Source: an uncultured Methanosarcinales archaeon
Lineage (GTDB): Archaea > Nanobdellota > Nanobdellia > Woesearchaeales > GW2011-AR9
Assembly: GCA_964632045.1 (NCBI GenBank)
Contig: CAZWBB010000004.1
Coordinates: forward strand, 18,615-82,614
Reading direction: 5' to 3'
Length of the DNA stretch: 64,000 bases
Below, one piece after another: positions 17,426 through 58,965 of the stretch. Both the position numbers and the translations under genes were made by a program. Every line of letters starts with the position of its first letter. The first letter of the stretch is position 1. The notes beneath the pieces are model-generated. The model had not been told where the DNA came from and did not search any database. It worked only from the letters and a program-made list of their open reading frames with translations.

Positions 17426-19072
17426 ATGGCTGAATCATTTGCCCATCTTGAGAATATCTGTAATGCCCTCTTCAACAAATTGGAGAAGGATAATATTCCT
17501 CATCGGTTAGATAGATCCCAATCTCAGACAATTGGCACTTTGTACCATGACTATCATGAGAATGCAATATTACAGCATAAATTTTCATCATTCTTTGATT
17601 TCCTCAATGAGCTGCTTGCCTGGTCATATGGATTGCAACTGAATGTTGAAGCTGCACTGAAAGGACGACCAACTTTTACAGAAGTTACACCGTTACCTGA
17701 TCAGTTCTCAGGGAAAGTCGACCTCTTTTGCTTGATCGATGTGACCTACCAAGAGTATGAGATTAAAAACAAGCAGTATAATTTCCAGAAGAAAAGAAAA
17801 GTATTGATTGATGGCAAGAAAAAGTTGCTTGTGGCCTCATTCAACGATAATTTCTGGGATAATATCTATAACGACTTTGACAGTTATGAAGGTGGAGATG
17901 GAAAAGATATCTGTATCTTCAACAGATCAAAGCATAGCATTGGTTCATACCTCCATTGTGCCGAGGCAAATGTTAATTACCTAGATATCAAGTGTGATGA
18001 GTTAGATCTGAATCCAATCTGCAGGGCTATACTTCTTCTGGGTTTTGGAGTTGGAGGGTATTCTAAGAAGCATGCTAACAGCAGGCCTAGCAGGTATGTG
18101 GTAGTTGATGGAGTATTGGGCAACTTTGTTGATTTGGAAGATTCTGCAAAGAGAGAAGTGTATAAGCTGATGTGGGATTCGATTAGATCCTTTTCGTTCA
18201 AGAGAAAGTTCAATGTTCTCCTGAATACTTTCCACTCCGTGAATCAACCTGAACCTGATGAGTTTGTTGAATTTGTAAAGAATGTAGAAAGGAAGAAAAT
18301 ATTTGAAGAGATGAGTGTACATGAGGAGAATGGCATCCAATACACACATGAGCTAGTATTCCTTGACAATTCTGACATTGTCCAACGTTGTTCAAATATG
18401 GACAAAGAGAGATTTTTCTATCATGGCGAGCAATATTCAGATACATTCCATGCTATCAACAAAAGTCTGCTTCCCAAAGCAGGACATCCTGGTTCATTTT
18501 TCAAATTGGGGGGCTATGTCAAATGCTTGGAATTTAAGAACGTAGAGAGTCCGGAGGCACACAAGAGAACGAGGATACAAGGATGTCTAATTCTGTCAAT
18601 CGCTTCTATATTGATGTTAGGTAAATGCTATTCTTGTCTTACGGGGACTGAAACATTGGGCGGAAGGAAAGTGAACAATTATTATACCTATATGGACACA
18701 GCTGGAGAAAAGCAGTTACCTCATCTACGGCAGGAAATAGAAGAGACCGCATGGCACGAATGTTCTGGTTATCTGTCAGGTGAGTTCCTTGTCTGTAAAG
18801 CAGAGCATAATTGCGCTTCTAGATATCAGGATGAATGCTTAAAAGGAACAATCGATGTAGAGATACCTTTGAGGTCAATCGTAAACGTTAGTTACGTTAC
18901 CAAAGGTTTTTTTGGCTACCCTTGTCTGCAGGTTTCAATTGACCATCTAAGAAATGGCAGGGTAGACAATCTGCCTCTGGCCCCCATAAAGTTGCGGACG
19001 GAGGAGGGAGCGAAGCATTTAATCAGGCTGATTTCAAGATACCCCGTCGATAAACAAAGAGATGGAGAGTAG
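17426..19072 (+). CDS. Hypothetical protein, a divergent fourth member of the expanded novel family (see findings)
   Basis: RYVVVDGVLGNFVDLEDSAKREVYKLMW...FNVLLNTFHSVNQPEPDEFVEF...GEQYSDTFH aligns with LLVEGVxGVV...YLYSCL...LxFNLxFNPxSQ...FVNxxG...RYSDTWW of the other three. A transmembrane segment follows (LILSIASILMLG). Confidence 0.5.
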   Translation: MAESFAHLENICNALFNKLEKDNIPHRLDRSQSQTIGTLYHDYHENAILQHKFSSFFDFLNELLAWSYGLQLNVEAALKGRPTFTEVTPLPDQFSGKVDLFCLIDVTYQEYEIKNKQYNFQKKRKVLIDGKKKLLVASFNDNFWDNIYNDFDSYEGGDGKDICIFNRSKHSIGSYLHCAEANVNYLDIKCDELDLNPICRAILLLGFGVGGYSKKHANSRPSRYVVVDGVLGNFVDLEDSAKREVYKLMWDSIRSFSFKRKFNVLLNTFHSVNQPEPDEFVEFVKNVERKKIFEEMSVHEENGIQYTHELVFLDNSDIVQRCSNMDKERFFYHGEQYSDTFHAINKSLLPKAGHPGSFFKLGGYVKCLEFKNVESPEAHKRTRIQGCLILSIASILMLGKCYSCLTGTETLGGRKVNNYYTYMDTAGEKQLPHLRQEIEETAWHECSGYLSGEFLVCKAEHNCASRYQDECLKGTIDVEIPLRSIVNVSYVTKGFFGYPCLQVSIDHLRNGRVDNLPLAPIKLRTEEGAKHLIRLISRYPVDKQRDGE

Positions 19073-19074
19073 GT

Positions 19075-20154
19075 TCACACCTTCTGCACGTACTTAAACT
19101 GATTGAAGATTATGATCGAGTCGTAACTGATGATGTTTTCAGAGAATTCAGTCCTGATCTCATCGATGATTCGATGAAAGTCAGCATTGTCTCTGGCAAA
19201 GACGCTTAAGTGATAGTCCCACCTGCCGATCATCTTAATGTACCACACAACGTTAGAATGATATTTAAGGAAAGTGAAAAATTTTTCTTTGTTGAGGTGT
19301 TTAAACTTAAAAAAAACCTTCCACCACTGATAACCCATTTGGCTTAGTGAGGCCAGAGGCATGAATCGCTTGATCACCCCGGATAAGATCATCTTCTTTA
19401 TCCGGTTATCAACGGCTACAGGAGCCAGGTTCACCTTCTCTGAGATGTGCCTGATACTTGCCGCTGCCTCGAGCTTAAGAAGTTCCAGTATCTCTTTGTC
19501 TTTTCTGTCCAATTTCACCTGACTGTGGTCCCCCTTAGAGGCTTCGAATTCTTTCTGAAAAGTAGAACCCTTACGTTCTGAGATGTTGAGTTGACTGCAT
19601 TCTTCTCCCCTGAGTATGAAATCCAATCCCAGGAAATCTTCCTCCAATATTTCGAGGATGTCATACCCATGGATCACATGGTGATAATCATCAATGATGT
19701 TATCCAACAACTGCACAAATTCTTCCTCTTGCCTGACGCTTGCCAGGATCTGGATATCGTAACTGCCAGAACAATTTTTCAATCGTGTTATCTGATCAAA
19801 ATCAAACAGGAAGTCGATCAATTTTTTCTCGTCTGAGAGCGTCTTCAGTTTAATGTATATCAGATAATTCCTCAACCCAAGCCGACGATGGTCTAGTAAA
19901 GTAAGATTGCCGTAGAGGAAATTGCTTTCCATCATCCTTTTGATACGATAGGCTACCGTTTCTCTTTTCAGTCGCAGCTTCTTGGCGATAGCTGTATTGC
20001 TGTAGCGGGCATTCTGGTGGAGAATGTACAGGATTTTTTTGTCTACAAGATCCAACTTGATTGCCTCTCTTACCTTTCCATCTGCATACCTGTTGTATTC
20101 CCTCACTTGTCCTATAAATTTGTTTTGAGACATATCTTTACACAAAGCAAACAC
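19075..20154 (-). CDS. Tandem-duplicated Lrp/AsnC-family transcriptional regulator (two HTH+RAM units). The likely true start is the ATG at 20133.
   Basis: DKKILYILHQNARYSNTAIAKKLRLKRETVAYRIKRM, then a second unit DRKDKEILELLKLEAAASIRHISEKVNLAPVAVDNRIKKM. MSQNKFIGQV aligns with the N-termini of the two paralogs. Confidence 0.65.
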   Translation of the reverse strand: MFALCKDMSQNKFIGQVREYNRYADGKVREAIKLDLVDKKILYILHQNARYSNTAIAKKLRLKRETVAYRIKRMMESNFLYGNLTLLDHRRLGLRNYLIYIKLKTLSDEKKLIDFLFDFDQITRLKNCSGSYDIQILASVRQEEEFVQLLDNIIDDYHHVIHGYDILEILEEDFLGLDFILRGEECSQLNISERKGSTFQKEFEASKGDHSQVKLDRKDKEILELLKLEAAASIRHISEKVNLAPVAVDNRIKKMILSGVIKRFMPLASLSQMGYQWWKVFFKFKHLNKEKFFTFLKYHSNVVWYIKMIGRWDYHLSVFARDNADFHRIIDEIRTEFSENIISYDSIIIFNQFKYVQKV

Positions 20155-20155
20155 A

Positions 20156-20166
20156 ATATAAATAAT
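20156..20166 (-). promoter_or_regulatory. TATA-like box (ATATAAATAAT) about 28 bp upstream of the ATG at 20133 on the minus strand
   Basis: Spacing consistent with a leaderless start at 20133. Confidence 0.3.
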
Positions 20167-20221
20167 TTATGGTTTCCGGTCAAAATATGGAGAGAATTCT
20201 ACCATTTTTCTATATGTCAAT

Positions 20222-21325
20222 TCATCTACAATCACTATGGTAAATACAATATCTATTTGCTTCTTCCGGCAGGTCAATATTTGGCTGGTCAGGATCCAAA
20301 AGGATTTTCTTACACTGGCTGATGTCGGAGGTGCAGCAATCAGGATCCTCGCTTCTGGGAAAGTAGATTTTCCTGATCTTCCTAGCGTACTCTGAAGTTG
20401 CAGCCTTTGTAAGATTACCTTCTACAAATATTCCATCTTCAATAACAATACCGAGCTTGGCCAGGAAGTAGCTGTCCGCCATGATCGCTCCATCATATTC
20501 GACCATGACTCTTGGATAATCAAAGTCAAAAGCTATGTATGGGCGCCTGTACTTCCAGGAATGACTAAACTCTTCCCTATCTATCTTCTCCAATCTTTCT
20601 GCAAGGAACCGGTAATCCATCCCTTCCCATAGAAAGTTGTTATTCTCTGCCTTCCCGTATGGGGCGGTCTCCTGCATGTAGGGAAAGATATTGTTCTTCC
20701 TGTAGAATCTAAAAATGTTCTCCAGTTCTGGAGCATTGATGGTATTCATCACTGTTCCGCATCCCAATCTGTCTTCATCAGCGAAACCCTTTTCGAGGAG
20801 CATAGCCAATCCCTTTGGGATATGACCTTCTTTCAATTCGATAAATTCATATGACGTTCTTGGATTGACGATCCGGTTGGAAGTGTCGGGGATCATACTC
20901 TCCATCTTACCGATGACAGAAATATCCATCTTATAGAATTCATCGACTAACTCCTGGCTTGGTGTTGGATGCAGGCTGGAAAGCAGCACCACATGAAGTC
21001 CGTTCTCATTGGCTGCTTCCGCCAGCTCAAGGAAGACTTTCCCTTTCTTTCTCAGCAAAGGTTCACCCATCCCTGGTACAAAGACAGTCTTCACTCCTAA
21101 TCCAGCTATTTCCTTTAGAAGAAGCTTGTACTCATCCAGATCCATCTCCTCTTTGATCTTCCTTTTCTCCTCATAGCAGCACATCAGACAGTCGTTAAGG
21201 CATTCTGGGTAAAGAAATACATCTGCTAACAGGATCTCATCGTTTTCCCGGGCATCCCTGGCCTGCTGCGGAGTAAAGAATCCTTTGAGTAGAGGCGGAT
21301 GATTTTGGGAGTTTGTTTTTCTCAT
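20222..21325 (-). CDS. Radical SAM enzyme with a C-terminal Cys-rich tail
   Basis: CLNDCLMC (Cx3Cx2C) near the N-terminus and GMGEPLL. C-terminal CCTSDISQC...C...C could be an auxiliary cluster. Confidence 0.6.
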   Translation of the reverse strand: MRKTNSQNHPPLLKGFFTPQQARDARENDEILLADVFLYPECLNDCLMCCYEEKRKIKEEMDLDEYKLLLKEIAGLGVKTVFVPGMGEPLLRKKGKVFLELAEAANENGLHVVLLSSLHPTPSQELVDEFYKMDISVIGKMESMIPDTSNRIVNPRTSYEFIELKEGHIPKGLAMLLEKGFADEDRLGCGTVMNTINAPELENIFRFYRKNNIFPYMQETAPYGKAENNNFLWEGMDYRFLAERLEKIDREEFSHSWKYRRPYIAFDFDYPRVMVEYDGAIMADSYFLAKLGIVIEDGIFVEGNLTKAATSEYARKIRKIYFPRSEDPDCCTSDISQCKKILLDPDQPNIDLPEEANRYCIYHSDCR

Positions 21326-22041
21326 TCTGTATAAGCTTCACCAAAATAGTCTAATTCAATTTCTAATCTGGGAGGTGAATCAGGTTCAGCTTTGGCTCTG
21401 GCCAGCAGATAGATGTGGGAGTCCGCTAATGATTTCAATTTTGTACAAAGGTCTTTAGAGGTTGATTTTTCAACAGAAATTTTGCGTTCATGTCCACCCA
21501 AAGAGCCGATCCCTTCAGCTTTATAATGCGGCAATATTGGGCCGGTCCTCATCTCTCCATGTGCACCGCGAGGAAAAACCCTTTCCAAAGTCTCCTCTAT
21601 TTTCACATCACTCACATAAGCCCCATTGATAAAAACCAGTCCTTCCTCCGGATTTTGAAGATCTTCGACAGGAGCGATTAATTCACCGAACCAACGGTCG
21701 GAGCGTCGATACCTGTTCATGGGTCTGTAGTTGTGGTAAAATGTCTTACCATCAGAGAAGGGCTTTGTAATCAGCTCGTCAAAAAATGAGATTATCTCTC
21801 CGTGGTTGGTGAAAGTGTAGATCAGGCCCATCAAACCAAATGTTCCACCTAACAACCTTGGCATCTGGTCGTCGCAGCCAAACAATCCATAACCGCACAC
21901 GCCAAAATATCCAGCTGCTCCGACACCATAGGCAAGCGGCCTTATCTTTTCCCAGGTAGTCTTGGGCGATATCCTTGGCTGGGAGTTGCAGAGCTGTTCC
22001 AACCCTTTTTTTGAAGATAGTAAGTTTGTTGGTATCATCAT
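21322..22041 (-). CDS. Hypothetical protein (239 aa); ATGA overlap with the radical SAM gene implies an operon
   Basis: ORF. Gly-rich GVGAAGYFGVCGYGLFGCDD segment. Confidence 0.45.
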   Translation of the reverse strand: MMIPTNLLSSKKGLEQLCNSQPRISPKTTWEKIRPLAYGVGAAGYFGVCGYGLFGCDDQMPRLLGGTFGLMGLIYTFTNHGEIISFFDELITKPFSDGKTFYHNYRPMNRYRRSDRWFGELIAPVEDLQNPEEGLVFINGAYVSDVKIEETLERVFPRGAHGEMRTGPILPHYKAEGIGSLGGHERKISVEKSTSKDLCTKLKSLADSHIYLLARAKAEPDSPPRLEIELDYFGEAYTE

Positions 22042-22183
22042 ATTCTGTGGGGGAATATATTATTTAAATTTTTCTTATTTTTTAGTAGTACCCAGATTTA
22101 GTGGTACTAGTTTACCTGCTTTTGATGTGATTGAATTAATATTAAATCTTCTCATGATTGTTTTACGGAAATGACGATCCGAT

Positions 22184-24442
22184 ATGAGAATCCTGCTTTT
22201 TTGGGCGAAAGAAATATATAGTTTTTGGTATCTCATTATTTGGGGGGATTGTTTAATGGAAGAGAAGGAGATGACAAGAAAAGCAATTGAAACACTCATT
22301 GAAACAAGCCAGCAGTATCCTGAAAAAGCTGAAGAGCAGTTGGGGGAGTTGGAATTACTTTTCCACAAAGAGGGTGAAGGAGCTGGGAGAGGGGCAGGCT
22401 ATGAACTGAGAAGACAATTTGCTGGCGGCCGCGACGGATTTGGATTTTTTCTTTATGAATTGTTGAAGAAATCCGGAATGCATTTTGATAAAGAAGAATG
22501 GAAATATCAAAGGATAGAGAAAGCACCCTACCTCAGTCCTCTTGACCTCCTACGGATTGGTGAAAATTACCAACCTCCCCCAATCAAATTTAAACCTAAG
22601 GAAATCAAAAGCAAGAAATTGAGTCTACATGCCAAATTTGAAGATAATCCGTTGAAAATCGTTTACGATTCCACTTTCAACAAAACCAAACCTAAACCGG
22701 TCTGCACAAAAAACCGGGACACTCACGCCTTGGCTTCCTATCAGGATGCAGCTGATCCTCTTACACATCATCTGTATATAACCATTGAGAAAAAAAGAAG
22801 TAAAAGAGCCGATGTTTCTCCTACAGTGCTAGAAGCGATGATAATGGAGTGCGAAAAAGATGGCAAAGAGACATTATTAGTGGAAGGGGTCCATGGAGTA
22901 GTGCAAGACAAATTGAGAGAGGAAACCTTTGCTTATCTTTACTCCTGCCTGATTCAGTATGCATGCAAGGAGAAAAAGAGTCTTCTCTTCAATCTCAGTT
23001 TCAACCCCGGCTCCCAGGAAATGCCGATGCATTTTGTTAATTATGTGGGTTGGAGGAATAAGAAAGAAGTTTTCTATGGTATGGAAAATCCACGAAAGAA
23101 AGAGCAGAAGCTGGAGGAGTATAAATGCCAGGTTACAGCAATCACACTGAAAGATCTTTCAAGGAAAGTCAGGAAAATGAGACGTAATCTGGAAGAAAAG
23201 TTAAGGACAGTTTTTGCAGATAGCAGGGAAGCACTTGATGATTTTGCAGCAGAGAGAAGGTATAATGACGCCTGGTGGGGCTCCTCCGGAAAAGAAGAGT
23301 GGAACATGAGAAAGGGGGAAGCTTACTGTCTACAATTAACTCTACAAGAGGTAAAGAAAGAATATTTGAAACCAAAAAAAGAACTGGGCAGAAAAATTGT
23401 GATTAAAGGAATTCCCGTGCCACTGGCGTTTCTTTTGTTATATCTGGTGCCAAAAATGGCATCTCAGTACTGGGAAAAATACGGCGAGCATGTCAAGGAA
23501 CTGCCTGGCCTTCTTTCCTGGGATTTTGCGGACAAAAGGCTGCCGGAGATTGTAACGGATTATGACCCTGAAAAGTTTCTGGAAGAGCTTGCAGATGCAG
23601 CATCTAGCCCTTCTTCTGATGCACGGAGTTTTGATCTCTCAAATCTGGAGAGGCATCCAACTGTTATCTTCAACAAATACTTACAGGCGACAGATATGGG
23701 AGAAGAAAAATTTGGCGTGTTGGATTATCTGGAATCAAAAAGAAGATTGTATGAATGGTATGGAAGAGACGTGCCTAAGCAGAGATTCATCCAATATTCC
23801 TCAGGCTTTGGTAGCAAAAAAGAAGAGCGATGGAAAGAAGTAGTTGATGTTTTTTGGTATGATGCTGGGGATAAGGCTGGAGTTGTGATGAAGCTCACCG
23901 AAGGATTCAATGCTTATGTAGTAGCCAGAGAAGGAGCGAAGAGATACGTTGATTTATTGTATACTCAAATGAAAAGAGAGAGGGAAGAAGGCAGATACAT
24001 TCTGTACCCGGGAAAGAAGATTGAAATCCTAAGACCAGATCCAAAGAGATACTTTGATGAATTTGTTTTCTGTGATGTTGGAAAGTGTAAAGAGGAAAAA
24101 GTCAAGTTAGCTGAAATGAATAATGTGTTAGGGAGATTGTTTGAAGAAAGTACAGGAAATGGAGGGATTGTGCCCGTACAGGTACATGGTGGTAATCTCC
24201 TTTGTAAAGGGAAAGAAATTTATCCCATGGAAAGTCTTTCCCCTCTTGTAAGAATTCAGTACTTCTCTGACTCATTGGTGTTGCCGGCAGGGGAAGCCAC
24301 ACTGGCCTTACCAGGAGCGGAATGCATAATCCCCTTTGAGGAAATCCACCAGGCTAAGCAGGTGGCCGATGTTTTATTCACACTGAAAGAGAAGTACACT
24401 GAAACAGGTGACAAAGGAGGATTCCTAAATGCATTTAGATAA
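22184..24442 (+). CDS. Novel family protein, paralog 1 (alternative start at 22256, MEEKEMTRK)
   Basis: Conserved N-domain with ELRRQFAGGRDGF, YQPPPIKFKP, PVCTKNRDTHALASYQDAADPLTH, LLVEGVHGVV, YLYSCL, FNLSFNPGSQ, RYNDAWWGSSGKEEWN. Then a transmembrane segment (PVPLAFLLLYLV) and a variable C-terminal half. Confidence 0.55.
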   Translation: MRILLFWAKEIYSFWYLIIWGDCLMEEKEMTRKAIETLIETSQQYPEKAEEQLGELELLFHKEGEGAGRGAGYELRRQFAGGRDGFGFFLYELLKKSGMHFDKEEWKYQRIEKAPYLSPLDLLRIGENYQPPPIKFKPKEIKSKKLSLHAKFEDNPLKIVYDSTFNKTKPKPVCTKNRDTHALASYQDAADPLTHHLYITIEKKRSKRADVSPTVLEAMIMECEKDGKETLLVEGVHGVVQDKLREETFAYLYSCLIQYACKEKKSLLFNLSFNPGSQEMPMHFVNYVGWRNKKEVFYGMENPRKKEQKLEEYKCQVTAITLKDLSRKVRKMRRNLEEKLRTVFADSREALDDFAAERRYNDAWWGSSGKEEWNMRKGEAYCLQLTLQEVKKEYLKPKKELGRKIVIKGIPVPLAFLLLYLVPKMASQYWEKYGEHVKELPGLLSWDFADKRLPEIVTDYDPEKFLEELADAASSPSSDARSFDLSNLERHPTVIFNKYLQATDMGEEKFGVLDYLESKRRLYEWYGRDVPKQRFIQYSSGFGSKKEERWKEVVDVFWYDAGDKAGVVMKLTEGFNAYVVAREGAKRYVDLLYTQMKREREEGRYILYPGKKIEILRPDPKRYFDEFVFCDVGKCKEEKVKLAEMNNVLGRLFEESTGNGGIVPVQVHGGNLLCKGKEIYPMESLSPLVRIQYFSDSLVLPAGEATLALPGAECIIPFEEIHQAKQVADVLFTLKEKYTETGDKGGFLNAFR

Positions 24443-26789
24443 AATACTATGTTCACTTGAAGGAATAACTTTTCAAACTCCCGAATCTCTCCAAGAGCAG
24501 ATAGAAGATTTTGAACTGCTCTTCCATCGTAAGAGTGAGCAGGCAGAAAGGTATGGAAGCATAAGCAAGGAATTAAGGAGGCAGTTTGGGGGTGGTAGCG
24601 ATGGGTTTCATTGTTTCATAGAGGAGCTGTTGAACAATTCCAAGTTTGAGAGTGATGGCAAATATCAACGCAGATCAGAGGCTGCATTGAATGCTTTTGA
24701 CCTACTTCGACTTGCGGAACATTATCAGCCACCAAAGATTCAATTCAGACCGAGGAGGATAGATGGGGAAACAATTTTCTACGCAAAGTTCGTAGAAGAT
24801 CCTCTTGAATTCATCTTCAATTCAGCTTTCAATAGGACAGAACCTAAGGCAGTCTGTACAAAGAACAAAGAACCGCATTCTCTTGCCTCTTACCTGGACG
24901 CTGCCGATCCTTTCACCCATTATCTGCAGGTGTCTGGAGAAAATGATTCCTCTTTTCTGGAAGCGATAATCTGTGAATGCGAGGGGAAAGAAACATTGCT
25001 TGTGGAGGGGGTCTATGGAGTAGTTGAGGAAGAGAAGAGAGAGAAGTCTTTTGAATATCTGTATTCCTGCCTGACAGCGTATGCCCATAAGCAGAAGAAA
25101 AGTATTTCATTCAATCTCCATTTCAATCCTGCTTCTCAGCACATACCCATGCAGTTTGTCAATTTTGTGGGTAGGGGAGAGGAATTCTACCTTTTTGAAG
25201 ATAGCAGAAAGAATCCAAAGAGGATGGACAAAAGTGTTGCCAGGCATAAGAAGAATATCTCAGCTCTTAAAGAGCCAATAAAGTTACTGGAAGTGATTGA
25301 GAGAAATTTCACTGATCCGAAGGAAGTGCTGGACATTTTCACCAATCAAAAAAGATATTCCGACACATGGTGGGAATCTTCCGGTAAAGATGAATGGAAC
25401 AACAGGGAGGGAGAAGCATACTGTATGGAGATTGGTTTCAAAGAACTGAAGAAGATGTACAGGGTGCCCTTGCCGAGAATTGAATGGGGCGTGGGCCTGA
25501 TCCTGTTAGCTGCACTTGTAGGTGTAGGAGAGAATTACTTTTCAGGTGATGATTCCATAGAGTGTGCTTCGGCGAACATGAAAGGTCTGACCTTACACTG
25601 CGTTGATGATGAAGGAGAGAGGCAGTTCTATCTGGATGAGTTGGATAATCTTCATAGAGATGGGGACGTGTTCAAGGCATCTGTGAAAGGAGTAAAATAT
25701 CAGATAACTCCCATAAATGAGGGAGAAGCGGGAGAGTTGCATTCTGCAGCAGGTTTTCGCAGATTGATAGATGAGAACTTACAGAGATTCTGGGATGCTG
25801 GTGGGAAATTACGTGACAAATTCTGCAGACAACCACCTCCAAGCCGGAAATTATCGATCCCTGAATTGTCGGAATATACGATGGGTTGCACCGAAAATTC
25901 GGCCGTTTCATTCAGGACCTTGGATCTTGGAATTATTCTGGAGGAGGAGGGACTGAAAGAAGAAGCGGATACCATTATGGGCATTATTGCCCAAAGAGCT
26001 TACTCTACAAAAAATGCAGATGAAGTGCTATCAGCAGCAGGTTTCTTCAAAGATGAAAATATCTATGGATTGTTGAAGATGAGCAAACAATCAGGACAGA
26101 ATACTAATGAACTGGTTGCTCTATTGGGTCAGCTTTCCGAATGGAAAAACAGCCAGCTTCGTGGAAAAGTAATTGCATTGGCGCACTATTATGTTGGTAG
26201 TGGACAATTCACGGGAGGAGTTGTTGACATGGAGCAAGGGATAATAGATCCCAATTTTGGTAGGGGGTACATTGTTCTTTCTGATTTGGTGAAAGCTTCT
26301 GAATTTCTGAAGCCAGTGGGACTTGCAAAATATATTGCTCTGGCCGAAAAGCTTGCAGATCACCCTTATGCTGCTCACATCTTTGAGGATCTGAACCAAA
26401 TCGGGAAAGATGGGACATCAACCAGATCAGAACCCAGAAACAAGATGGGAAGGAAGTTTTTTCTTCACCTAATAGAAACAGTAGACAAATATGCGGCTGT
26501 TGAGAAAGTGGGAGATAAATTCTCAGGTAGAATTGGAAAGATTGTCAGCGGCATGAGGCACATCTCTGATGATGTGATCGGACAAGGAAATAACTTCTAT
26601 AAAGTATTAGGTTATGCTATGCTGTTACAGGAAGAATGCGTGTTTCAACGTCTTACCAACCTTAAGACGGAGAAGGAAGTAAATGATTATGTTGTTAAAG
26701 CCATTGAAGCGGCAAAGGAAGATGATTCAATATTACGTTTAGGCGATGTAAGTTGGGTCTATGAAAAAGGATTGTGTGTCAGGGAATGA
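24429..26789 (+). CDS. Novel family protein, paralog 2; 14-nt overlap with paralog 1
   Basis: Same conserved N-domain (KAVCTKNKEPHSLASYLDAADPFTH; LLVEGVYGVV; RYSDTWWESSGKDEWN) and a transmembrane segment GVGLILLAALVGV. Confidence 0.55.
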   Translation: MHLDKILCSLEGITFQTPESLQEQIEDFELLFHRKSEQAERYGSISKELRRQFGGGSDGFHCFIEELLNNSKFESDGKYQRRSEAALNAFDLLRLAEHYQPPKIQFRPRRIDGETIFYAKFVEDPLEFIFNSAFNRTEPKAVCTKNKEPHSLASYLDAADPFTHYLQVSGENDSSFLEAIICECEGKETLLVEGVYGVVEEEKREKSFEYLYSCLTAYAHKQKKSISFNLHFNPASQHIPMQFVNFVGRGEEFYLFEDSRKNPKRMDKSVARHKKNISALKEPIKLLEVIERNFTDPKEVLDIFTNQKRYSDTWWESSGKDEWNNREGEAYCMEIGFKELKKMYRVPLPRIEWGVGLILLAALVGVGENYFSGDDSIECASANMKGLTLHCVDDEGERQFYLDELDNLHRDGDVFKASVKGVKYQITPINEGEAGELHSAAGFRRLIDENLQRFWDAGGKLRDKFCRQPPPSRKLSIPELSEYTMGCTENSAVSFRTLDLGIILEEEGLKEEADTIMGIIAQRAYSTKNADEVLSAAGFFKDENIYGLLKMSKQSGQNTNELVALLGQLSEWKNSQLRGKVIALAHYYVGSGQFTGGVVDMEQGIIDPNFGRGYIVLSDLVKASEFLKPVGLAKYIALAEKLADHPYAAHIFEDLNQIGKDGTSTRSEPRNKMGRKFFLHLIETVDKYAAVEKVGDKFSGRIGKIVSGMRHISDDVIGQGNNFYKVLGYAMLLQEECVFQRLTNLKTEKEVNDYVVKAIEAAKEDDSILRLGDVSWVYEKGLCVRE

Positions 26790-26954: not shown

Positions 26955-28010
26955 CTACTCCACCCGAGGCTCAAACTTATACTGATTGAAGATTAGGATA
27001 GAATCATAATAATTTATCCCCTCCTTAAACTCATCTCTTACTTCATTAAGCACTCGGTGAAATTCTTTATTATCTCTGGCGAAGATACTCAACTGGTAGT
27101 TCCACTGGCCGATACACTTGACGCACCACTCAATGTTGTTATGCTGTTCTGCATAACTGTACAAGCGACTGTCTTTCACTCCCACCAGATTAAGGAACAC
27201 CGTGAACCATTGATGACCTAGAGCAGAGAAAGAGACAAGCGGAGTAAAGGATTTGATGACCCCCTGAGAAACAAGGTTTCCCATTCGAAGCTTGACAGAG
27301 TTTGGAGCCACTCTAACTTGGTCAGAGATTTCCTTTAATGTTGCCCGGGCGTTGAACTTCAGCAGAGACAAGATTTGTCTGTCAGTATCATCGATTTTGA
27401 TCACACCATTATATGGTTTAAGTTTATCCCGTTCCCCAAATTCCTTGGCGAAAGCAGAGCCTTTCCTTTCCGCTATATTCATCTCCTGCAGCAGTTCAGA
27501 AGAGGGTTCGTCAAAGATCATCATGTTACCTGCCGGGTCCTCTCTCAGAAAATTCAGTATCACATACTCTCTCACTGCAGAAGCATGCTCCTGCAAAAAA
27601 TTGTTGATGAACGCCTCGAATTCTTCCAGGCTTCTGGTAGTTACATCAAAAGCCAAATCATATCTTCCGCTGCAGGCAGATAGAATGGTAATCTCCTCCC
27701 TGCTGATCAGATCCTCTATCATCTTCTCTTCATGGGTTACTTTCACTAACTTCAATAAAACATTGAAAGTCATAAAACCCAGTTTGCGCGGATCGAGAAG
27801 AGTAAGGAATCCGGTAATGATCTTCCTCTTGCGAAGCTGGGAGATTCTGTAAGCAACAACTTCCCGGCTTAGTTTGAGAGATTTAGCTAGGGCAGTGTTA
27901 GAGATACGGCAGTTCCTGGAAAGGATGTACAAAATCTTCTTATCTAACAAATCCACTTTTTGGGGCATGACATCCTGTAATACCTGCCCTCTAAAAATAT
28001 CTGTGTTCAT
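26955..28010 (-). CDS. Tandem-duplicated Lrp/AsnC-family regulator, paralog 2
   Basis: DKKILYILSRNCRISNTALAKSLKLSREVVAYRISQL, then a second unit DDTDRQILSLLKFNARATLKEISDQVRVAPNSVKLRM. Confidence 0.65.
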   Translation of the reverse strand: MNTDIFRGQVLQDVMPQKVDLLDKKILYILSRNCRISNTALAKSLKLSREVVAYRISQLRKRKIITGFLTLLDPRKLGFMTFNVLLKLVKVTHEEKMIEDLISREEITILSACSGRYDLAFDVTTRSLEEFEAFINNFLQEHASAVREYVILNFLREDPAGNMMIFDEPSSELLQEMNIAERKGSAFAKEFGERDKLKPYNGVIKIDDTDRQILSLLKFNARATLKEISDQVRVAPNSVKLRMGNLVSQGVIKSFTPLVSFSALGHQWFTVFLNLVGVKDSRLYSYAEQHNNIEWCVKCIGQWNYQLSIFARDNKEFHRVLNEVRDEFKEGINYYDSILIFNQYKFEPRVE

Positions 28011-38307: not shown

Positions 38308-38321
38308 ACGAGGTAAATAAA

Positions 38322-40400: not shown

Positions 40401-40430
40401 GAATGTTCAATAGATACAAGGGGAAAGCTT

Positions 40431-45789: not shown

Positions 45790-45836
45790 AAATGAAAAAA
45801 TGTGTGATTTGAGGATCATACTATTGGAGGAATAAA

Positions 45837-48806: not shown

Positions 48807-48840
48807 GACCAATTGAGCATCAGATAGGGGAGGTATAAAA

Positions 48841-54348: not shown

Positions 54349-55290
54349 CTATGAACCGGTTTCTGGTCGTTCAGGATTTATCTCTTCGGCGTGATCGTAT
54401 ATCTTCTCCACGACAAATGGCACCTCCTGGTCGCAACTGGTATAACCTGATCTCGAAAGAAGAGCAAATTCCTCTTCTTTATTCAGGAAAGTAGTAAACT
54501 CTGTAGGGATTGAGCTTTGGAAGAGGTACTTAAATTTCCTTTCTTCATCATATCTGCTCAGGACAAATGAACCCTCGTAATAAGTTACTGTTCTGGTATC
54601 ATTACCCTCGGGATCATATTCCTGTTCCTCAATTTCATACTTACGTTGGGCAACATCGCTGATCTGTAGGCGGTCCAGGAAAGTGCATCCGCCAAGGTGG
54701 TGTTCACGAGATGATGATTTGCCAAGCAATTCCAAGCTCTCTGCCGCTGCAACAGGTTGACCATATCTCTTCTCCACAATTGTCCTTTCAGTAGATATCT
54801 TATCCTTGAGGAGATAAAAGCCTCTGCTATCGATAGTAAGGTCAACTTCTTTTTCAAATGTTAAGCAGGTCCTTGCTGCCTCCTGTAGGGAATTGGCGGC
54901 CAATCCTCCTATAAACAGACCGGCACCAGCCAGAAGGAGGTAGCCGAAAGAGAAACCTTCACTATAGAAATGATTCACTGCGTAAGCAATCGCACCGCAG
55001 CCGCCAGCGGTGAAAGTGGCTCCCCAAAAGATCTGCCCTCCTATGTAGTTTCGTCTGAAAGATGTGTCAACGTCGTCCTCTATTGCAATCTGTTCTAAGG
55101 TGGGCAGGGCGGAAGCTCTTTTTATCATTGCATTTTTTTCTGTCATGAATACAGTATGGACATATTTAATTATTAAAGTTTTTGTTGATATTTTTACGGA
55201 AACTATTTCTGCTGTGTAGAGATTTTGGTTTTTTGGGAAAGGTTTAAATAAATCAGGGGGCCATTTCTTTTTATGGGGGTCAGTGGACAT
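54349..55290 (-). CDS. Hypothetical membrane protein (probable start at 55146, MTEKNAMIK)
   Basis: Two hydrophobic segments (WGATFTAGGCGAIAYAV; YLLLAGAGLFIGGLAA). Confidence 0.4.
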   Translation of the reverse strand: MSTDPHKKKWPPDLFKPFPKNQNLYTAEIVSVKISTKTLIIKYVHTVFMTEKNAMIKRASALPTLEQIAIEDDVDTSFRRNYIGGQIFWGATFTAGGCGAIAYAVNHFYSEGFSFGYLLLAGAGLFIGGLAANSLQEAARTCLTFEKEVDLTIDSRGFYLLKDKISTERTIVEKRYGQPVAAAESLELLGKSSSREHHLGGCTFLDRLQISDVAQRKYEIEEQEYDPEGNDTRTVTYYEGSFVLSRYDEERKFKYLFQSSIPTEFTTFLNKEEEFALLSRSGYTSCDQEVPFVVEKIYDHAEEINPERPETGS

Positions 55291-57612
55291 AATACACCAG
55301 AAATAGTAGATTTTCTCAAGGGAATCTCATTCCAGTATCCTGAAAAGCTAGAAGAACAACTAACGGAACTCAGAGAATTATTCAACAAAGAAAGCAAGGT
55401 CTCAAGAAGGTATGAATTAGTCAGCCAAGAATTGCGAGTCCAATTTGGCGGTGGTAGTAAAGGTTTTTCAACCTTCATTGAAGAGATTACAGAGAAATCC
55501 GGATATTACCTAGATTCTGAAAATGAGAGATACATGCCACTGACAGAAGGATTAAGCATCTTTGACCTCCTGAAAATAGCTGAACGATATCAACCCCCTT
55601 CAACACAATTCAAACCAAAATCCCTCTCTTCAGGGAAAAAACCCGCGAGAAAATCCAGGAGAAGTCTGCATGCCAGATTTGAGACTATCCCATTGAGCAT
55701 AGTCTATAACTCCTTTTTCAAGCAGACAAGACCGAAAGCTGTCTGCACCAAGAACAGGGAAGCGCATTCCCTAGCCGGGTACCAGGATGCGGCTGATCCA
55801 TTCACGCATAATCTGTCATTATCTCTGGAAGAAGCGCGGAAGGAAGGTAAAACATCACATCAACTTTTGGAAGCGATCGTTATCGAGACTGAAAAAGTCG
55901 AGGGTGGGAATGATAAGAACGGGAATGATGATGGTTGCCTGTTGGTAGAAGGTGTCTTTGGAGTTGTCGATGAAGAGATGAGGGAGTCCGTGTTTGATTA
56001 TATCTACTCCTGCCTGATTAAGTATGTCTACGAAGAGAAGAAAAACCTTCTCTTCAATCTCAGTTTCAATCCCGGTAGCCAGCATCTCCCTTTGCATTTC
56101 ATCAACTGGTTGGGCTGGAAGAAGCTGAATAAAGTGTTTTATGAGTTCTCTGAGGAAGGGAAGAGAGTGAAAAGGAAGGTGGAGAGTATTGAAGAGCATT
56201 CTTGTGAGTTGCAGGCAGTTAGGTTGTCGGATAGTGAAAGAGCTGGATTGGAAGAGCGGGTGGGGGATTGTTTTGACGCTCCACAGGAAGTATTAGATAG
56301 ATTCGACCGGGAGAAGAGATATTCTGATACTTGGTGGTGGATTTCCGGGAAGAGTGAATGGAATATGAGAGAAGGGAGTGTACATTGTCTGGAAATAAAT
56401 CGTGAGATGATAAAGGAGGAATATGAAAGACTTTTCGTCTCCAATAGTTTTTCCATAAAGAGATTATTGACAACTGGTCTGTTCGGTCTGCTGTTTGTAG
56501 GAGGATTGATTGGACTATTACATCAGAGCGGACTTTTAAAGATTAAAGGGATAGATGTTGAGAGTTCGGATGCCGGTAAGTTTCCGGAGTATCAATCGCT
56601 TGAAAAAAGGGTAAGATGGAGCAGTGGCGGGTGCAGTCTGATCGGAATTGAGGAAAGAGATCCATTGTGTAAAGTAGTCGGCAGCTGGGATTTTGAAGAC
56701 AAGACAGAATTTGAGAGGAATAATGCTGTTCAGCAGTACTTTCCTATTTTCTGTTCGGCTCAGGACAGAAATGATTTAGATACGATCTGGGGCCTGAACT
56801 TCATCGCAAAGAATGCCGATAAAGGTAATAAGGAAAAGTTCATGAGGAGAATATTGAGCGGAGATTGTGGAAATCAGGCATTAGTCAATCTATTGACCTA
56901 CCCATGCGATGTCGACAACTTTGATTATCTGGAGCCTTTGTCTTTTTGTCCTTCGGATCTGGTCCGTTTTGAGATGCCGCCAGATTACATCATAAATGGT
57001 TATGCCAATACTGATTTTTTTATGGGAAGAGTTCTTCTCCTGGCTAGAATGGGTCCAGAAAATAGTATGGTTTTTATGGAGGCTGAGAAGATGTACTCAA
57101 AAGTCTTTTTGGGGGAAGCAGGCCCAGGAGAACTTGAGTTCATCGGCAAATATCATGATCTGGACCGCTTGAAAAGGTTCTATCTGTGGGATCATGAAAA
57201 TCGAAAAGAGGGGGACTGCGATTCTGACGAACAAAACGGTTGGAAACATCTGATGAGACTTAATATTGTGAAATTACTGCGTCAGACTGACAAAGGGAGA
57301 GCTTTCTTGGAACAAAAGTTCTGGAAAAGCAAAAAACCTGAGGAAATTGTCAGTATAGGAAGATATCTTCTACCGTTGCAGGAATTATCAGGTCGAGAAA
57401 AGTTTTTGAGGAGATACACTTTGACCCTGGCTGGGCTGGGAGTGGCAGATAGTAACATCTACGGAGATGAATCGCCAGGCCAGTTTAGGTTAGAAGATTG
57501 CATTGAAAAGAAGAGGGAAGTAACAACTGGATGTCTTTATCTGGATTGTATGGTGATGGCTATCCCTTCAGGAGGGGGTATAACCAAATGCGATCTGGGA
57601 GTGCATCACTGA
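55273..57612 (+). CDS. Novel family protein, paralog 3
   Basis: KAVCTKNREAHSLAGYQDAADPFTH; LLVEGVFGVV; YIYSCL; FNLSFNPGSQ; RYSDTWWWISGKSEWN; transmembrane segment LFGLLFVGGLIGLL; variable C-terminal half. Confidence 0.55.
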   Translation: MGVSGHNTPEIVDFLKGISFQYPEKLEEQLTELRELFNKESKVSRRYELVSQELRVQFGGGSKGFSTFIEEITEKSGYYLDSENERYMPLTEGLSIFDLLKIAERYQPPSTQFKPKSLSSGKKPARKSRRSLHARFETIPLSIVYNSFFKQTRPKAVCTKNREAHSLAGYQDAADPFTHNLSLSLEEARKEGKTSHQLLEAIVIETEKVEGGNDKNGNDDGCLLVEGVFGVVDEEMRESVFDYIYSCLIKYVYEEKKNLLFNLSFNPGSQHLPLHFINWLGWKKLNKVFYEFSEEGKRVKRKVESIEEHSCELQAVRLSDSERAGLEERVGDCFDAPQEVLDRFDREKRYSDTWWWISGKSEWNMREGSVHCLEINREMIKEEYERLFVSNSFSIKRLLTTGLFGLLFVGGLIGLLHQSGLLKIKGIDVESSDAGKFPEYQSLEKRVRWSSGGCSLIGIEERDPLCKVVGSWDFEDKTEFERNNAVQQYFPIFCSAQDRNDLDTIWGLNFIAKNADKGNKEKFMRRILSGDCGNQALVNLLTYPCDVDNFDYLEPLSFCPSDLVRFEMPPDYIINGYANTDFFMGRVLLLARMGPENSMVFMEAEKMYSKVFLGEAGPGELEFIGKYHDLDRLKRFYLWDHENRKEGDCDSDEQNGWKHLMRLNIVKLLRQTDKGRAFLEQKFWKSKKPEEIVSIGRYLLPLQELSGREKFLRRYTLTLAGLGVADSNIYGDESPGQFRLEDCIEKKREVTTGCLYLDCMVMAIPSGGGITKCDLGVHH

Positions 57613-57618
57613 GATGGA

Positions 57619-58965
57619 ATGGAGGAACAAATGAATAAATTAAACTTGGAAAATATTGCTGTGATGACCGCGACTCTTGCAGCGGTAGGGATAAATTCTA
57701 TCAGTTTATCCGGTTGTAAACAGGGCTGCTCGGAGGAGGCTGTGGGTCCGGTAGATACTATGACTCATATGGATGCTGGAAAGAAGTTTGAACCTGGCAA
57801 AGATGATGCTGGCAAGCCATCTGCAGTAGTTAAAGGTTCTGATGGTCAAAGAATTATTCCCATTAAAATTTTGGATGACCAGGAGGGGAGATGCGGCGAA
57901 TTTGAGATGCGGATGCTGCTTGGACCAGAGAGCTGGAGGGCAGACCGTAATGATTTGGATAAAATTGTGAAAGTTTTTGACCATCTACATAACAACCGGA
58001 ATAAGGATTGGCGCGATAGGGTGGAACTGACCGACGATGAGGTTGCTGGTTGTGATTATGAATGTCTGGAAGCCTGTGACAGTTCTACCATGGCATGGTT
58101 GAATGATACTGTGGGACAAAGATGTTTCCGGACAGGTATTGTGGAGAAGTTCAGGTTCAAAAGAAAAGCAGTCAGGCAAGTAGAAGTGAGTTATCATGAA
58201 GGTATTAACAGCTGGGGAGAAGTTGATGTTTTGGCGGGTGAAGGTAGGGAGGAGAGGAATCATGTTTTCCGGTTCAGGACGGAGAAAGAGATCGATGAAT
58301 TTGTTAGGGATTTAGGTCCTTATGAAAAGGAGACAGAATGGAAAAACAAAGAAAAGGAACGGGTTGTCCGGTATGTGAGGGATGGGGCAGTAGAACCCAT
58401 CACCCATCCAAAAGAAGAGGGCAGTTCAAACGAATATGGGAGAATTCTCTTTTCTGTTGGAGAGATGAAAAAAGGATTAACATTGTTGGACAGGAGAGTT
58501 GGAGGAGATTGTCGACCGGATGAAGTTTTGGCATTCTTTAAAGGCCGTGATGAAGTGGAGAGGCGTCACCAAGAATGTGATGTTTGTTCTTTAAAAGAAA
58601 CAGTTGGATCTTATAATCTGATGAACGATGCGGAGAAAAGTCTTTGTGATTCAGTCATCCTCAGTAAGAAAGAGCTTTTTTGTCTCTTGAGGGAATGCAC
58701 CTACGGATGTTTAGGAGTAAAGCCAAATAATTTTGGTAGCATAACCTGCACCGGCTTTATTCCAAAAGAGCAGTACAGGATACGGTTGAGCAATATTCAG
58801 AAAGTTAGCCAAGGAAATTTCTATGTAGATCGGGGATATGGTTCGGTGACGATAGCCTGGATTGATCAAGAGTCAAAGAAGAGTAAGAAAAGCCTATTTG
58901 TTTTCAGAAAAGAGAACCAGATGAAGCGATTTACTGATGATCTGGGACAATATGTCCGGAGGTGA
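57619..58965 (+). CDS. Hypothetical lipoprotein (448 aa)
   Basis: Signal plus lipobox ISLSGCKQG. Confidence 0.45.
   Translation: MEEQMNKLNLENIAVMTATLAAVGINSISLSGCKQGCSEEAVGPVDTMTHMDAGKKFEPGKDDAGKPSAVVKGSDGQRIIPIKILDDQEGRCGEFEMRMLLGPESWRADRNDLDKIVKVFDHLHNNRNKDWRDRVELTDDEVAGCDYECLEACDSSTMAWLNDTVGQRCFRTGIVEKFRFKRKAVRQVEVSYHEGINSWGEVDVLAGEGREERNHVFRFRTEKEIDEFVRDLGPYEKETEWKNKEKERVVRYVRDGAVEPITHPKEEGSSNEYGRILFSVGEMKKGLTLLDRRVGGDCRPDEVLAFFKGRDEVERRHQECDVCSLKETVGSYNLMNDAEKSLCDSVILSKKELFCLLRECTYGCLGVKPNNFGSITCTGFIPKEQYRIRLSNIQKVSQGNFYVDRGYGSVTIAWIDQESKKSKKSLFVFRKENQMKRFTDDLGQYVRR

What the first reader, a model, noticed from the sequence alone, without database searches (positions are those of the whole stretch)
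17426..26789. Expanded uncharacterised protein family (four paralogs, two in tandem) with conserved N-domain, transmembrane segment and variable C-terminal half
ORFs 22184-24442, 24429-26789 and 55273-57612, plus a divergent member at 17426-19072, share a roughly 350-aa N-terminal domain. Its invariant blocks are ELRxQFGGGxDGF, YQPPxIxFKP, AVCTKNxExHSLASYxDAADPFTH, LLVEGVxGVV, YLYSCL, FNLxFNPxSQ and RYSDTWWxSSGKxEWNxREGEAYC. One predicted transmembrane helix follows, then about 350 aa of unrelated paralog-specific sequence. The conserved Cys...His...Asp spacing could be a catalytic core. I cannot match the domain to any family I know. Constant head plus diversified tail resembles polymorphic toxin or receptor families.
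Basis: seen in the sequence. Interest (0 to 1): 0.75.

Follow-up and report, generated by a model that had tools for sequence, protein, structure and literature searches.

The report
Archaeal membrane proteins with acetyltransferase-like heads
Four genes in this archaeal (Woesearchaeota-type) DNA encode an unannotated, rare kind of membrane protein with an acetyltransferase-shaped domain inside the cell and a swappable domain outside, nearly always encoded next to one particular gene regulator, which suggests (but does not prove) a new way for these tiny archaea to pass signals across the membrane.

Summary
Four paralogs (17426-19072, 22256-24442, 24429-26789, 55273-57612) share a 345-390 aa N-terminal "head", then one transmembrane helix and mutually unrelated "tails".

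New findings:
1. The family is rare: 46 clusters among 1.84 billion representative proteins. It has no Pfam or NCBIfam match. Every named member is a hypothetical protein from a Candidatus Woesearchaeota MAG.
3. Flanking charges put the head in the cytoplasm and the Cys-rich tail outside.
4. Tails are not orphans. Each belongs to a tail family found in other genomes and combined with different head subtypes.
5. In 13 of 14 independent loci the head gene or array lies next to a tandem-duplicated Lrp/AsnC regulator, usually convergent. Regulator clades track head subtype, not tail type.

Best reading (inferred, about 0.4): a modular signalling unit of external sensor tail, cytoplasmic acyltransferase-like head and cognate Lrp regulator. 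The polymorphic-toxin idea is not supported, and the proposed Cys-His-Asp triad only partly.

The parts
17426..19072 (+). Paralog P4 (548 aa), head subtype B (C-I-F-N motif). Head is about 17426-18571, TM about 18584-18640, and the short Cys-rich tail about 18641-19069.
   Evidence: ORF. HMM E = 1e-112. TM peak. The tail clusters with P0019, P0020, L013 and L015.
19075..20154 (-). Tandem-duplicated Lrp/AsnC regulator (2x HTH_AsnC + RAM), the clade B partner of P4. It is convergent with P4, with a 2-nt gap.
   Evidence: Pfam, NCBIfam. It is 54-64% identical to regulators next to subtype-B heads in other genomes, but only 42% identical to the window's other partner regulator.
20222..22041 (-). 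Radical-SAM protein (20222-21325) and a 239-aa membrane protein (21322-22041). Both run in the same direction as the regulator at 19075-20154 and sit between P4 and P1. They are local context, not conserved in other loci.
   Evidence: Pfam Radical_SAM. The same arrangement is seen only in near-identical contigs L002-L004 and is absent from L006-L018.
22256..24442 (+). Paralog P1 (728 aa from the called start; the ORF opens at 22184), head subtype A. Head is about 22256-23383, TM about 23396-23452. The tail is a singleton type.
   Evidence: (P0002).
24429..26789 (+). Paralog P2 (786 aa), head subtype A. It overlaps the end of P1 by 14 nt, so the two are probably one operon. Head is 24429-25463, TM about 25470-25526. 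The tail is type 1 (juxtamembrane C-x(9-12)-C module plus a long helical region).
   Evidence: Structure model. The tail is homologous to tails of P0017 (E = 1e-43), P0039, P0007, P0006 and P0011, which carry heads of subtypes A, B and C.
26955..28010 (-). Tandem-duplicated Lrp/AsnC regulator, the clade A partner of the P1-P2 array. It is convergent with P2.
   Evidence: Pfam. It is 53-56% identical to the regulators next to subtype-A heads in L001 and L009. The same gene pair is seen in the Woesearchaeota MAG locus L001.
55273..57612 (+). Paralog P3 (779 aa), head subtype A. Head is 55273-56448, TM about 56464-56520. The tail is type 3. It is the only head gene found without an adjacent tandem Lrp.
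   Evidence: The tail is homologous to part of the P0030 tail (E = 4e-35).
54349..55290 (-). 313-aa two-TM protein, divergent from P3. It is a stand-alone homolog of the tail of family member P0016.
   Evidence: BLASTP E = 8e-23 over 250 aa against the C-terminal half of P0016.
57619..58965 (+). 448-aa protein whose N-terminal hydrophobic segment ends in a lipobox-like ...SGC. It lies immediately downstream of P3 and is a conserved companion of tail type 3.
   Evidence: Homologous (E = 6e-60) to the gene immediately downstream of P0030 in L010, whose tail is homologous to the P3 tail.

Best explanation
These genes encode a Woesearchaeota-specific family of receptor-like, single-pass membrane proteins.

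Shown:
- The conserved head is a helical subdomain plus a very divergent GNAT (acyl-CoA N-acyltransferase) fold.
- The head is predicted to face the cytoplasm.
- The Cys-rich tails are predicted to be extracellular, and they are exchanged among head subtypes.
- Head genes sit next to a tandem-duplicated Lrp/AsnC transcription factor, and the factor's clade matches the head subtype.

Inferred: head plus tandem Lrp form a signalling pair. The interchangeable tail senses something outside the cell, plausibly a host-cell or surface ligand since these archaea are thought to be symbionts. The tail controls the head. The head then acts on its cognate regulator by acyl transfer. That transfer could go directly onto the regulator (lysine acetylation) or onto a small molecule, such as an amino acid, that the regulator's RAM domains bind. 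Either route would change transcription.

Head-only and N-extended soluble members would be the same enzyme-regulator pair driven by cytoplasmic inputs.
For: Family and rarity:
- 46 representative clusters at E <= 1e-3 among 1.84e9 proteins.
- No Pfam or NCBIfam hit in any member.
- All named members come from Candidatus Woesearchaeota MAGs.

Fold:
- AF2 model with a 31-sequence alignment gave pLDDT 92.7 and pTM 0.91.
- Foldseek hits are also all GNAT, but weak.
- Secondary-structure order is beta1-alpha1-alpha2-beta2-beta3-beta4-alpha3-beta5-alpha4...beta7.

Conserved residues: the most conserved polar or small residues are C143 and N146 (alpha1-alpha2 loop), E/D193-G194-G/A197 (beta4), Q237, P240 and F243 (beta5-alpha4), and Y310 and G328. 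By established GNAT structural knowledge, these elements line the cofactor and acceptor cleft.

Topology:
- K+R averages 4.3 before the TM and 2.1 after it (p = 3.7e-5, n = 30).
- Tail Cys content is 2.1% against 1.2% in heads, and 23 of 30 tails have an even Cys count.

Modularity: tail type 1 is found on heads of subtypes A, B and C, and so is tail type 3.

Regulator link:
- 13 of 14 independent head arrays have an adjacent full-length tandem Lrp. Twelve are convergent downstream and one is divergent upstream.
- The link holds even for head-only members and for soluble N-extended members (L014, L012).
- Head identity versus regulator identity gives Spearman 0.64, Mantel p = 6e-4.
- Regulator clades follow head subtype even though the exchangeable tail-coding DNA lies between head and regulator. 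L017 has head B with tail 1 and regulator B. The window's own two partner regulators are only 42% identical to each other.

Precedent: a GNAT-type acetyltransferase (Pat) acetylates Lrp K36 and lowers its DNA binding in Salmonella (PMC5112231).
Against: - No biochemical evidence exists, and everything about activity is inference.
- The canonical GNAT motif A (Q/R-x-x-G-x-G/A) is absent. The beta4-alpha3 junction varies in length and is acidic in subtype A, so acetyl-CoA use is unproven.
- There is no sequence or profile similarity to any GNAT, and the Foldseek E-values are weak.
- The genes are mostly convergent, so they are not co-transcribed.
- Co-diversification could partly reflect duplication of linked blocks.
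- P3 has no adjacent regulator.
- The sample of loci is small (14), and several come from related MAGs.
- I could not inspect model coordinates to check that the conserved residues cluster in 3D or that a CoA pocket exists.
Confidence: 0.4

Rival explanations
1. Co-regulation only. The tandem Lrp is just the local transcriptional regulator of the head genes, for example responding to amino-acid status. The head is a membrane-proximal acyltransferase that modifies an envelope component, lipid or surface protein. The tail is an adhesin or surface-binding domain. No signal passes from head to regulator.
For: - Lrp/AsnC proteins are common local regulators in archaea (established knowledge).
- Tail-specific secreted companions exist. 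The window is rich in secreted surface proteins.
- P3 functions without an adjacent regulator.
Against: - Regulator clades follow head subtype and not tail type, even though the tail DNA lies between them. Simple linkage or promoter-level regulation does not predict this.
- The pairing persists for soluble head-only and N-extended members (L012, L014).
- Convergent orientation is unusual for a local regulator and its target.
Confidence: 0.3
2. Non-catalytic sequestration. The head is a pseudo-enzyme that has kept the GNAT fold as a binding scaffold. It tethers its cognate tandem Lrp at the membrane, like an anti-sigma factor or like the Mlc-PtsG pair, and releases it when the tail binds its ligand.
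For: - The canonical CoA-binding loop motif is missing and there is no sequence similarity to active GNATs.
- The head-regulator match is subtype-specific.
- Short head-only members end in amphipathic-looking C-termini that could keep them at the membrane (sequences).
Against: Near-invariant polar residues sit at positions typical of the GNAT active cleft: C143, N146, H164 and E/D193. That pattern suggests a ligand or catalytic site rather than only a protein-binding surface. However, it does not exclude this model.
Confidence: 0.15
3. Polymorphic toxin or contact-dependent effector family. A constant N-terminal trafficking domain delivers variable C-terminal toxins.
For: The constant head with diversified, recombining tails resembles the domain logic of polymorphic toxins.
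Against: - The head has no signal peptide and is predicted cytoplasmic.
- Tails have no toxin-domain hits in Pfam or in PDB sequences.
- Tails are large and conserved across genomes rather than hypervariable tips.
- The downstream gene is a 350-aa transcription factor, not a small immunity protein.
Confidence: 0.03
4. GNAT-type toxin-antitoxin pair, of the TacT/TacA or AtaT/AtaR kind. The GNAT-fold head would be a toxin and the DNA-binding neighbour its antitoxin.
Against: - The genes are convergent, not a two-gene operon.
- Heads are 350-400 aa, mostly membrane-anchored with 150-1200 aa ectodomains, and occur in arrays of 1-3 per regulator.
- The partner is a full tandem Lrp, not a small RHH antitoxin.
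Confidence: 0.03

Closest known systems
GNAT (Gcn5-related N-acetyltransferase) superfamily, e.g. NatD/Naa40 (4u9w), PA3270 (1yre), RimI
   Different: - There is no detectable sequence or profile similarity.
- There is no Q/R-x-x-G-x-G/A loop motif.
- The signature motifs are its own: C-x-x-N...H-S-x-A-S-Y, V-E-G-V-x-G, N-Q-x-E-P-x-E-F and Y-x-D-T-[FW].
- A roughly 75-aa variable insert lies between alpha4 and the last strand.
- The domain is fused to a TM helix and a large ectodomain.
Sensor-fused protein acetyltransferases, e.g. the mycobacterial cAMP-regulated acetyltransferase (4orf) and Pat/PatZ
   Same: Both follow the logic of a regulatory or sensor module controlling a GNAT domain. Pat acetylates an Lrp regulator in Salmonella (PMC5112231).
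   Different: Those enzymes are soluble, sense cytoplasmic ligands and carry canonical GNAT motifs. They are not encoded as a conserved pair with a regulator. Here the putative sensor is extracellular and swappable.
LuxI/LuxR-type synthase-receptor gene pairs
   Same: In both, an enzyme with a GNAT-like fold is encoded next to (often convergent with) a ligand-binding transcription factor, and the pairs co-diversify.
   Different: LuxI enzymes are not among the listed structural hits. The partner here is a tandem Lrp with RAM domains, not a LuxR. No product is known. The TM helix and ectodomain have no LuxI counterpart.
Membrane-anchored regulators of transcription factors (anti-sigma/ECF sigma pairs, Mlc-PtsG sequestration)
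   Same: Both have an extracellular or membrane input domain, a single TM helix, and a cytoplasmic domain matched to a cognate, adjacently encoded transcription factor.
   Different: The cytoplasmic domain has a different fold, the factor belongs to a different family (tandem Lrp/AsnC), and the genes are convergent rather than in one operon.
Polymorphic toxin systems
   Same: Both combine a constant N-terminal region with recombining C-terminal regions.
   Different: Here the head is cytoplasmic without a secretion signal, there are no toxin domains, and there are no immunity genes.

Membership tests
GNAT acyl-CoA N-acyltransferase superfamily | Mixed alpha/beta fold with order beta1-alpha1-alpha2-beta2-beta3-beta4-alpha3-beta5-alpha4-beta6(-beta7) | tested here: met
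GNAT acyl-CoA N-acyltransferase superfamily | Sequence or profile match to a GNAT family (Pfam Acetyltransf_* and relatives, or solved GNAT sequences) | tested here: not met
   No GNAT family appears even at E <= 10 for any of 31 members. There are 0 PDB sequence hits at E <= 10 with the family profile.
GNAT acyl-CoA N-acyltransferase superfamily | Motif A pyrophosphate-binding loop Q/R-x-x-G-x-G/A between beta4 and alpha3 | tested here: not met
   By inspection of alignment A3 and the model, the junction reads V-E-G-V-x-G followed by 2 to about 20 variable residues. It is acidic in subtype A. A non-canonical loop cannot be excluded.
GNAT acyl-CoA N-acyltransferase superfamily | Binds acyl-CoA and transfers the acyl group to an amine | not testable with these tools
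   This needs binding and activity assays, or inspection of the model with CoA docked.
Polymorphic toxin systems | N-terminal secretion or trafficking domain exported from the cell | tested here: not met
   No N-terminal hydrophobic signal is present. The charge bias places the head in the cytoplasm.
Polymorphic toxin systems | C-terminal toxin domain followed by a cognate immunity gene | tested here: not met
   No domain hits occur in the tails. The downstream gene is a tandem Lrp regulator.
GNAT toxin-antitoxin modules (TacAT/AtaRT type) | Small soluble GNAT co-transcribed with a small DNA-binding antitoxin | tested here: not met
   The genes are convergent. The proteins are 400-1660 aa and mostly membrane-anchored. 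The partner is a 350-aa tandem Lrp.
Lrp/AsnC (feast/famine) regulators (the partner gene) | HTH_AsnC DNA-binding domain followed by a RAM (AsnC_trans_reg) ligand-binding domain | tested here: met
   Two HTH_AsnC/HTH_24 stretches plus AsnC_trans_reg are present in 19075-20154 and 26955-28010. The best NCBIfam hits are Lrp/AsnC/LysM-type regulators, all below equivalog cut-offs.
Single-pass receptor-like membrane proteins | One TM helix separating a conserved cytoplasmic domain from a variable extracellular domain | tested here: met
   There is one hydrophobic segment after the head in all 30 tailed members. The positive-inside bias has p = 3.7e-5. Tails are Cys-rich with even Cys counts. Topology is predicted, not measured.
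Synthase/enzyme plus cognate transcription-factor pair (LuxI/LuxR-like logic) | Conserved adjacency and co-diversification of enzyme and regulator | tested here: met
   Adjacency is found in 13 of 14 arrays. The Mantel test gives p = 6e-4. Regulator clades track head subtype. A product or ligand is not testable here.

The most novel reading that the evidence does not exclude
Head, TM helix and tail together with the tandem Lrp make up a previously undescribed type of prokaryotic transmembrane signal transduction system, a 'receptor acyltransferase'. Interchangeable extracellular sensor domains control a cytoplasmic GNAT-fold enzyme. That enzyme acylates its cognate Lrp-type transcription factor, or synthesises that factor's ligand. 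In Woesearchaeota this would fill the role that histidine kinases and response regulators fill elsewhere.
Probability: 0.3. Interest if true: 0.9.

Novelty: new variant of a known kind. Interest (0 to 1): 0.68.

Why it matters
DPANN archaea such as Woesearchaeota have small genomes, and their lifestyles are thought to depend on contact with host cells. How they sense and respond to their surroundings is largely unknown, and much of their proteome is unannotated.

This family is entirely unannotated and confined to one lineage. It is expanded within a genome: four copies in 64 kb here, and arrays of two or three elsewhere. It also has the architecture expected of a receptor.

If the head really acts on the paired Lrp regulator, this would be a new logic for signalling across a membrane. 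It would also give a direct handle on how these archaea perceive hosts or environment, namely defined pairs of proteins to express and test. Even under the conservative reading, it adds a very divergent, membrane-tethered branch to the GNAT fold, along with a set of new extracellular domain families.

Tried and rejected
- Word-indexed homology search with the P2 head found nothing. With the 31-sequence profile it found only 2 proteins, although the family is in the collection. That tool's index is insensitive here, so the exhaustive HMM search was used instead.
- The first structure model, from 4 sequences, was poor (pLDDT 60.8). It already pointed to GNAT but was replaced by the 31-sequence model.
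- The AFDB Foldseek library was unavailable.
A subtype-B alignment then gave only 4 loci.
- The genome scan gave 1 locus.
- The two neighbouring membrane proteins at 21322-22041 and 54349-55290 are not homologous to each other.
- Tails were searched against PDB sequences and gave nothing meaningful.
- Pfam, NCBIfam, tRNA and Rfam scans gave no family assignment and no RNA genes in the window.
- Literature searches found no description of this family or of the head-Lrp pairing.
- The third tandem Lrp in the window (35524-36567) was considered as the missing partner of P3. It is equidistant (30-40% identity) from all partner clades, so this was rejected.


Full report
**1. Observation**

The four ORFs are present as described. 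I call them P4 (17426-19072), P1 (ORF 22184-24442; gene callers start it at 22256, giving 728 aa), P2 (24429-26789) and P3 (55273-57612).

Their N-terminal 345-390 aa align without difficulty. P2 is 50%, 48% and 24% identical to P1, P3 and P4. A family HMM scores them at E = 1e-91 to 1e-112, while the next best window ORF scores E = 0.67. The similarity is therefore homology, not composition.

They are only partly kept in P4. A single hydrophobic segment follows the head in each protein. The four tails do not match one another.

**2. Organism and rarity**

The window carries RtcB, a queuosine-salvage protein, a eukaryote-type Ser/Thr kinase, three tandem Lrp/AsnC regulators and many secreted MopE/VWA proteins. 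It has no tRNA or Rfam hits.

The exhaustive profile search found 46 representative clusters at E <= 0.001 among 1.84 billion proteins. Four of those are the window's own proteins. Every member that carries a source name is a "hypothetical protein" from a Candidatus Woesearchaeota MAG.

None of 24+ members scanned has any Pfam or NCBIfam domain, in head or tail.

**3. What the head is**

With only the four paralogs the structure model was poor. With a 31-sequence family alignment (A3) it became confident: pLDDT 92.7, pTM 0.91.

The model for P2 has these elements:
- Residues 1-96 form a helical subdomain.
- The strand/helix order that follows is beta1 (115-121), alpha1, a loop, alpha2 (152-159), beta2, beta3, beta4 (189-198, LLVEGVYGV), alpha3 (201-221), beta5 (225-229) and alpha4 (238-248).
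- A variable insert comes next, then a final strand (327-335) and a helix leading into the TM segment.

At sequence level there is nothing. The family profile gives no PDB hit at E <= 10, and no member hits a GNAT Pfam family at E <= 10.

The head is thus a GNAT-fold domain far outside the recognised sequence families. The canonical CoA pyrophosphate loop motif (Q/R-x-x-G-x-G/A) is not present. The beta4-alpha3 junction is V-E-G-V-x-G followed by 2 to about 20 variable residues.

Across 47 non-redundant members the best conserved residues, in P2 numbering, are:
- C143: 44/47
- N146: 42/47
- H164: 40/47
- E/D193: 45/47
- G194: 42/47
- G/A197: 44/47
- Q237: 33/47
- F/W243: 46/47
- Y310: 39/47
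- G328: all 40 aligned sequences

From established GNAT structural knowledge, the alpha1-alpha2 loop, the end of beta4 and the beta5-alpha4 region line the cofactor and acceptor cleft. The conservation pattern therefore looks like a working site, but this is inference. I could not inspect coordinates.

H150 is conserved in 30/47 members and D160 in 26/47.

**4. Topology and architectures**

In 30 tailed members, the 15 residues before the TM carry on average 4.3 Lys+Arg against 2.1 after it (Wilcoxon p = 3.7e-5). Tails are richer in Cys than heads (2.1% versus 1.2%), and 23 of 30 tails have an even Cys count. There is no N-terminal signal sequence. This supports a cytoplasmic head and an extracellular tail.

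Three architectures exist:
- head-TM-tail, which is the majority
- head only, 380-450 aa, some ending in amphipathic-looking peptides
- a 400-575 aa N-terminal extension followed by the head core, without a TM

**5. Tails are modular**

All-against-all BLAST of tails groups them as follows:
- The P2 tail clusters with tails attached to subtype-A heads (P0006, P0007, P0009-P0011), a subtype-B head (P0017, E = 1e-43) and a subtype-C head (P0039).
- The P3 tail matches part of the 1660-aa P0030 (subtype C, E = 4e-35), and also P0014 (subtype B).
- The P4 tail matches P0019 and P0020.
- The P1 tail is a singleton.

Tail domains also occur as separate genes. The 313-aa protein divergent from P3 (54349-55290) is homologous to the tail of P0016 (E = 8e-23).

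The gene just downstream of P3 (57619-58965, lipobox-like N-terminus) is homologous (E = 6e-60) to the gene just downstream of P0030. Tail type 3 thus has a conserved secreted companion.

**6. The conserved partner**

Every locus I could retrieve was screened for heads and for the window's tandem Lrp. Of 14 independent head genes or arrays (1-3 heads each), 13 have a full-length tandem-duplicated Lrp/AsnC regulator (about 350 aa, HTH-RAM-HTH-RAM) next to them.
- Twelve are convergent, immediately downstream of the last head gene. Gaps range from an overlap to about 170 nt; in one case a companion gene intervenes.
- One is divergent upstream (L018).
- Only P3 lacks an adjacent regulator.

The pairing also holds for a head-only member (L014) and for a soluble N-extended member (L012).

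Pairwise identities of heads and of their regulators are correlated (Spearman 0.64, Mantel p = 6e-4). The regulators fall into three clades that match head subtypes A, B and C.

Within this one window the two partner regulators are only 42% identical to each other. Each is 53-64% identical to regulators beside same-subtype heads in other genomes.

The regulator clade follows the head and not the tail. L017 has head B, tail 1 and regulator B. L018 has head C, tail 1 and regulator C. P2 has head A, tail 1 and regulator A. This holds although the tail-coding DNA lies between head and regulator in the convergent loci. Simple linkage would predict the opposite, which argues for selection on head-regulator matching.

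The window's third tandem Lrp (35524-36567) is equidistant from all three clades and has no head neighbour.

**7. Mechanism**

Shown:
- the family is real
- the head has a GNAT fold
- the topology is predicted N-in/C-out
- tails are shuffled among head subtypes
- heads are paired with, and co-diversify with, the tandem Lrp

Inferred: the unit is a signalling module. A swappable extracellular tail controls a cytoplasmic acyltransferase-like head, and the head acts on its cognate tandem Lrp. I rate this at about 0.4.

Two catalytic routes are open:
- Direct acylation of the regulator. There is precedent: Pat acetylates Lrp K36 in Salmonella and lowers its DNA binding (PMC5112231).
- Acylation of a small-molecule effector of the RAM domains, following LuxI/LuxR-like logic.

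Rivals:
- The regulator merely controls transcription of envelope-modifying, adhesin-bearing enzymes (about 0.3).
- The head is a non-catalytic tether for the regulator (about 0.15).
- Polymorphic toxin (about 0.03). The head is cytoplasmic, there are no toxin or immunity features, the genes are convergent and the proteins are large and membrane-bound.
- GNAT toxin-antitoxin (about 0.03), disfavoured for the same reasons.

**8. Comparison and novelty**

The family works like, and at fold level belongs to, the GNAT superfamily. It fails the sequence-level and motif-level membership tests and has its own signature motifs.

I know of no described single-pass receptor with a cytoplasmic GNAT-fold domain, and two literature searches found none. 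I found no described pairing of such a protein with a tandem Lrp either.

I rate it a new variant of a known kind. There is a substantial chance (about 0.3) that the whole unit is a new type of transmembrane signalling system. All functional claims await biochemistry.

Noticed in passing
window 38262-52046 (+ strand): A run of seven large predicted secreted proteins, each with Cu-binding_MopE motifs. The motifs are combined with matrixin protease + FGE-sulfatase, VWA, or PD40/beta-propeller domains. This is a second expanded surface-protein family in the same window.
   Followed up: partly
window 100-5976 (+): A 1958-aa ORF whose only recognisable domain is a calcineurin-like phosphoesterase around residues 851-946. 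The rest is unannotated.
   Followed up: no
window 35524-36567 (-): A third tandem-duplicated Lrp/AsnC regulator, next to a queuosine-salvage gene. It is 30-40% identical to all three head-associated regulator clades and has no head-family neighbour. Tandem Lrps therefore seem to be a broader regulator class in this lineage.
   Followed up: partly
window 54349-55290 (-): A stand-alone two-TM protein homologous to the C-terminal half of family member P0016 (E = 8e-23). This shows that tail modules also exist as separate genes beside head genes.
   Followed up: yes
window 57619-58965 (+) and L010 10010-11650: A lipoprotein-like secreted protein, conserved immediately downstream of heads that carry tail type 3 (E = 6e-60). 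It contains an internally repeated Cys-rich module that resembles modules inside several tails.
   Followed up: partly
L006 9142-10288, L007 9830-11937, L018 8267-9349, L017 6637-7068: Tandem runs of small (about 75-145 aa) Cys-rich proteins with an N-terminal hydrophobic segment. Many begin MLEEKI... or end the signal in G-C. They recur next to head-regulator loci in several Woesearchaeota contigs. Their function is unknown.
   Followed up: no
window 20222-22041 (-): A radical-SAM protein and a 239-aa membrane protein lie in the same direction as the P4-partner regulator and may form one transcription unit with it. The arrangement is seen only in near-identical contigs, not in other family loci.
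   Followed up: partly
window, whole length: GC skew is positive in nearly every 2-kb bin, and cumulative skew rises steadily across all 64 kb. Most large genes are on the + strand.
   Followed up: no
method note (versus 28, 84): The word-indexed protein search missed almost the whole family, including the query's own full-length protein. The exhaustive HMM search and the exact look-up both show that these proteins are in the collection.
   Followed up: yes
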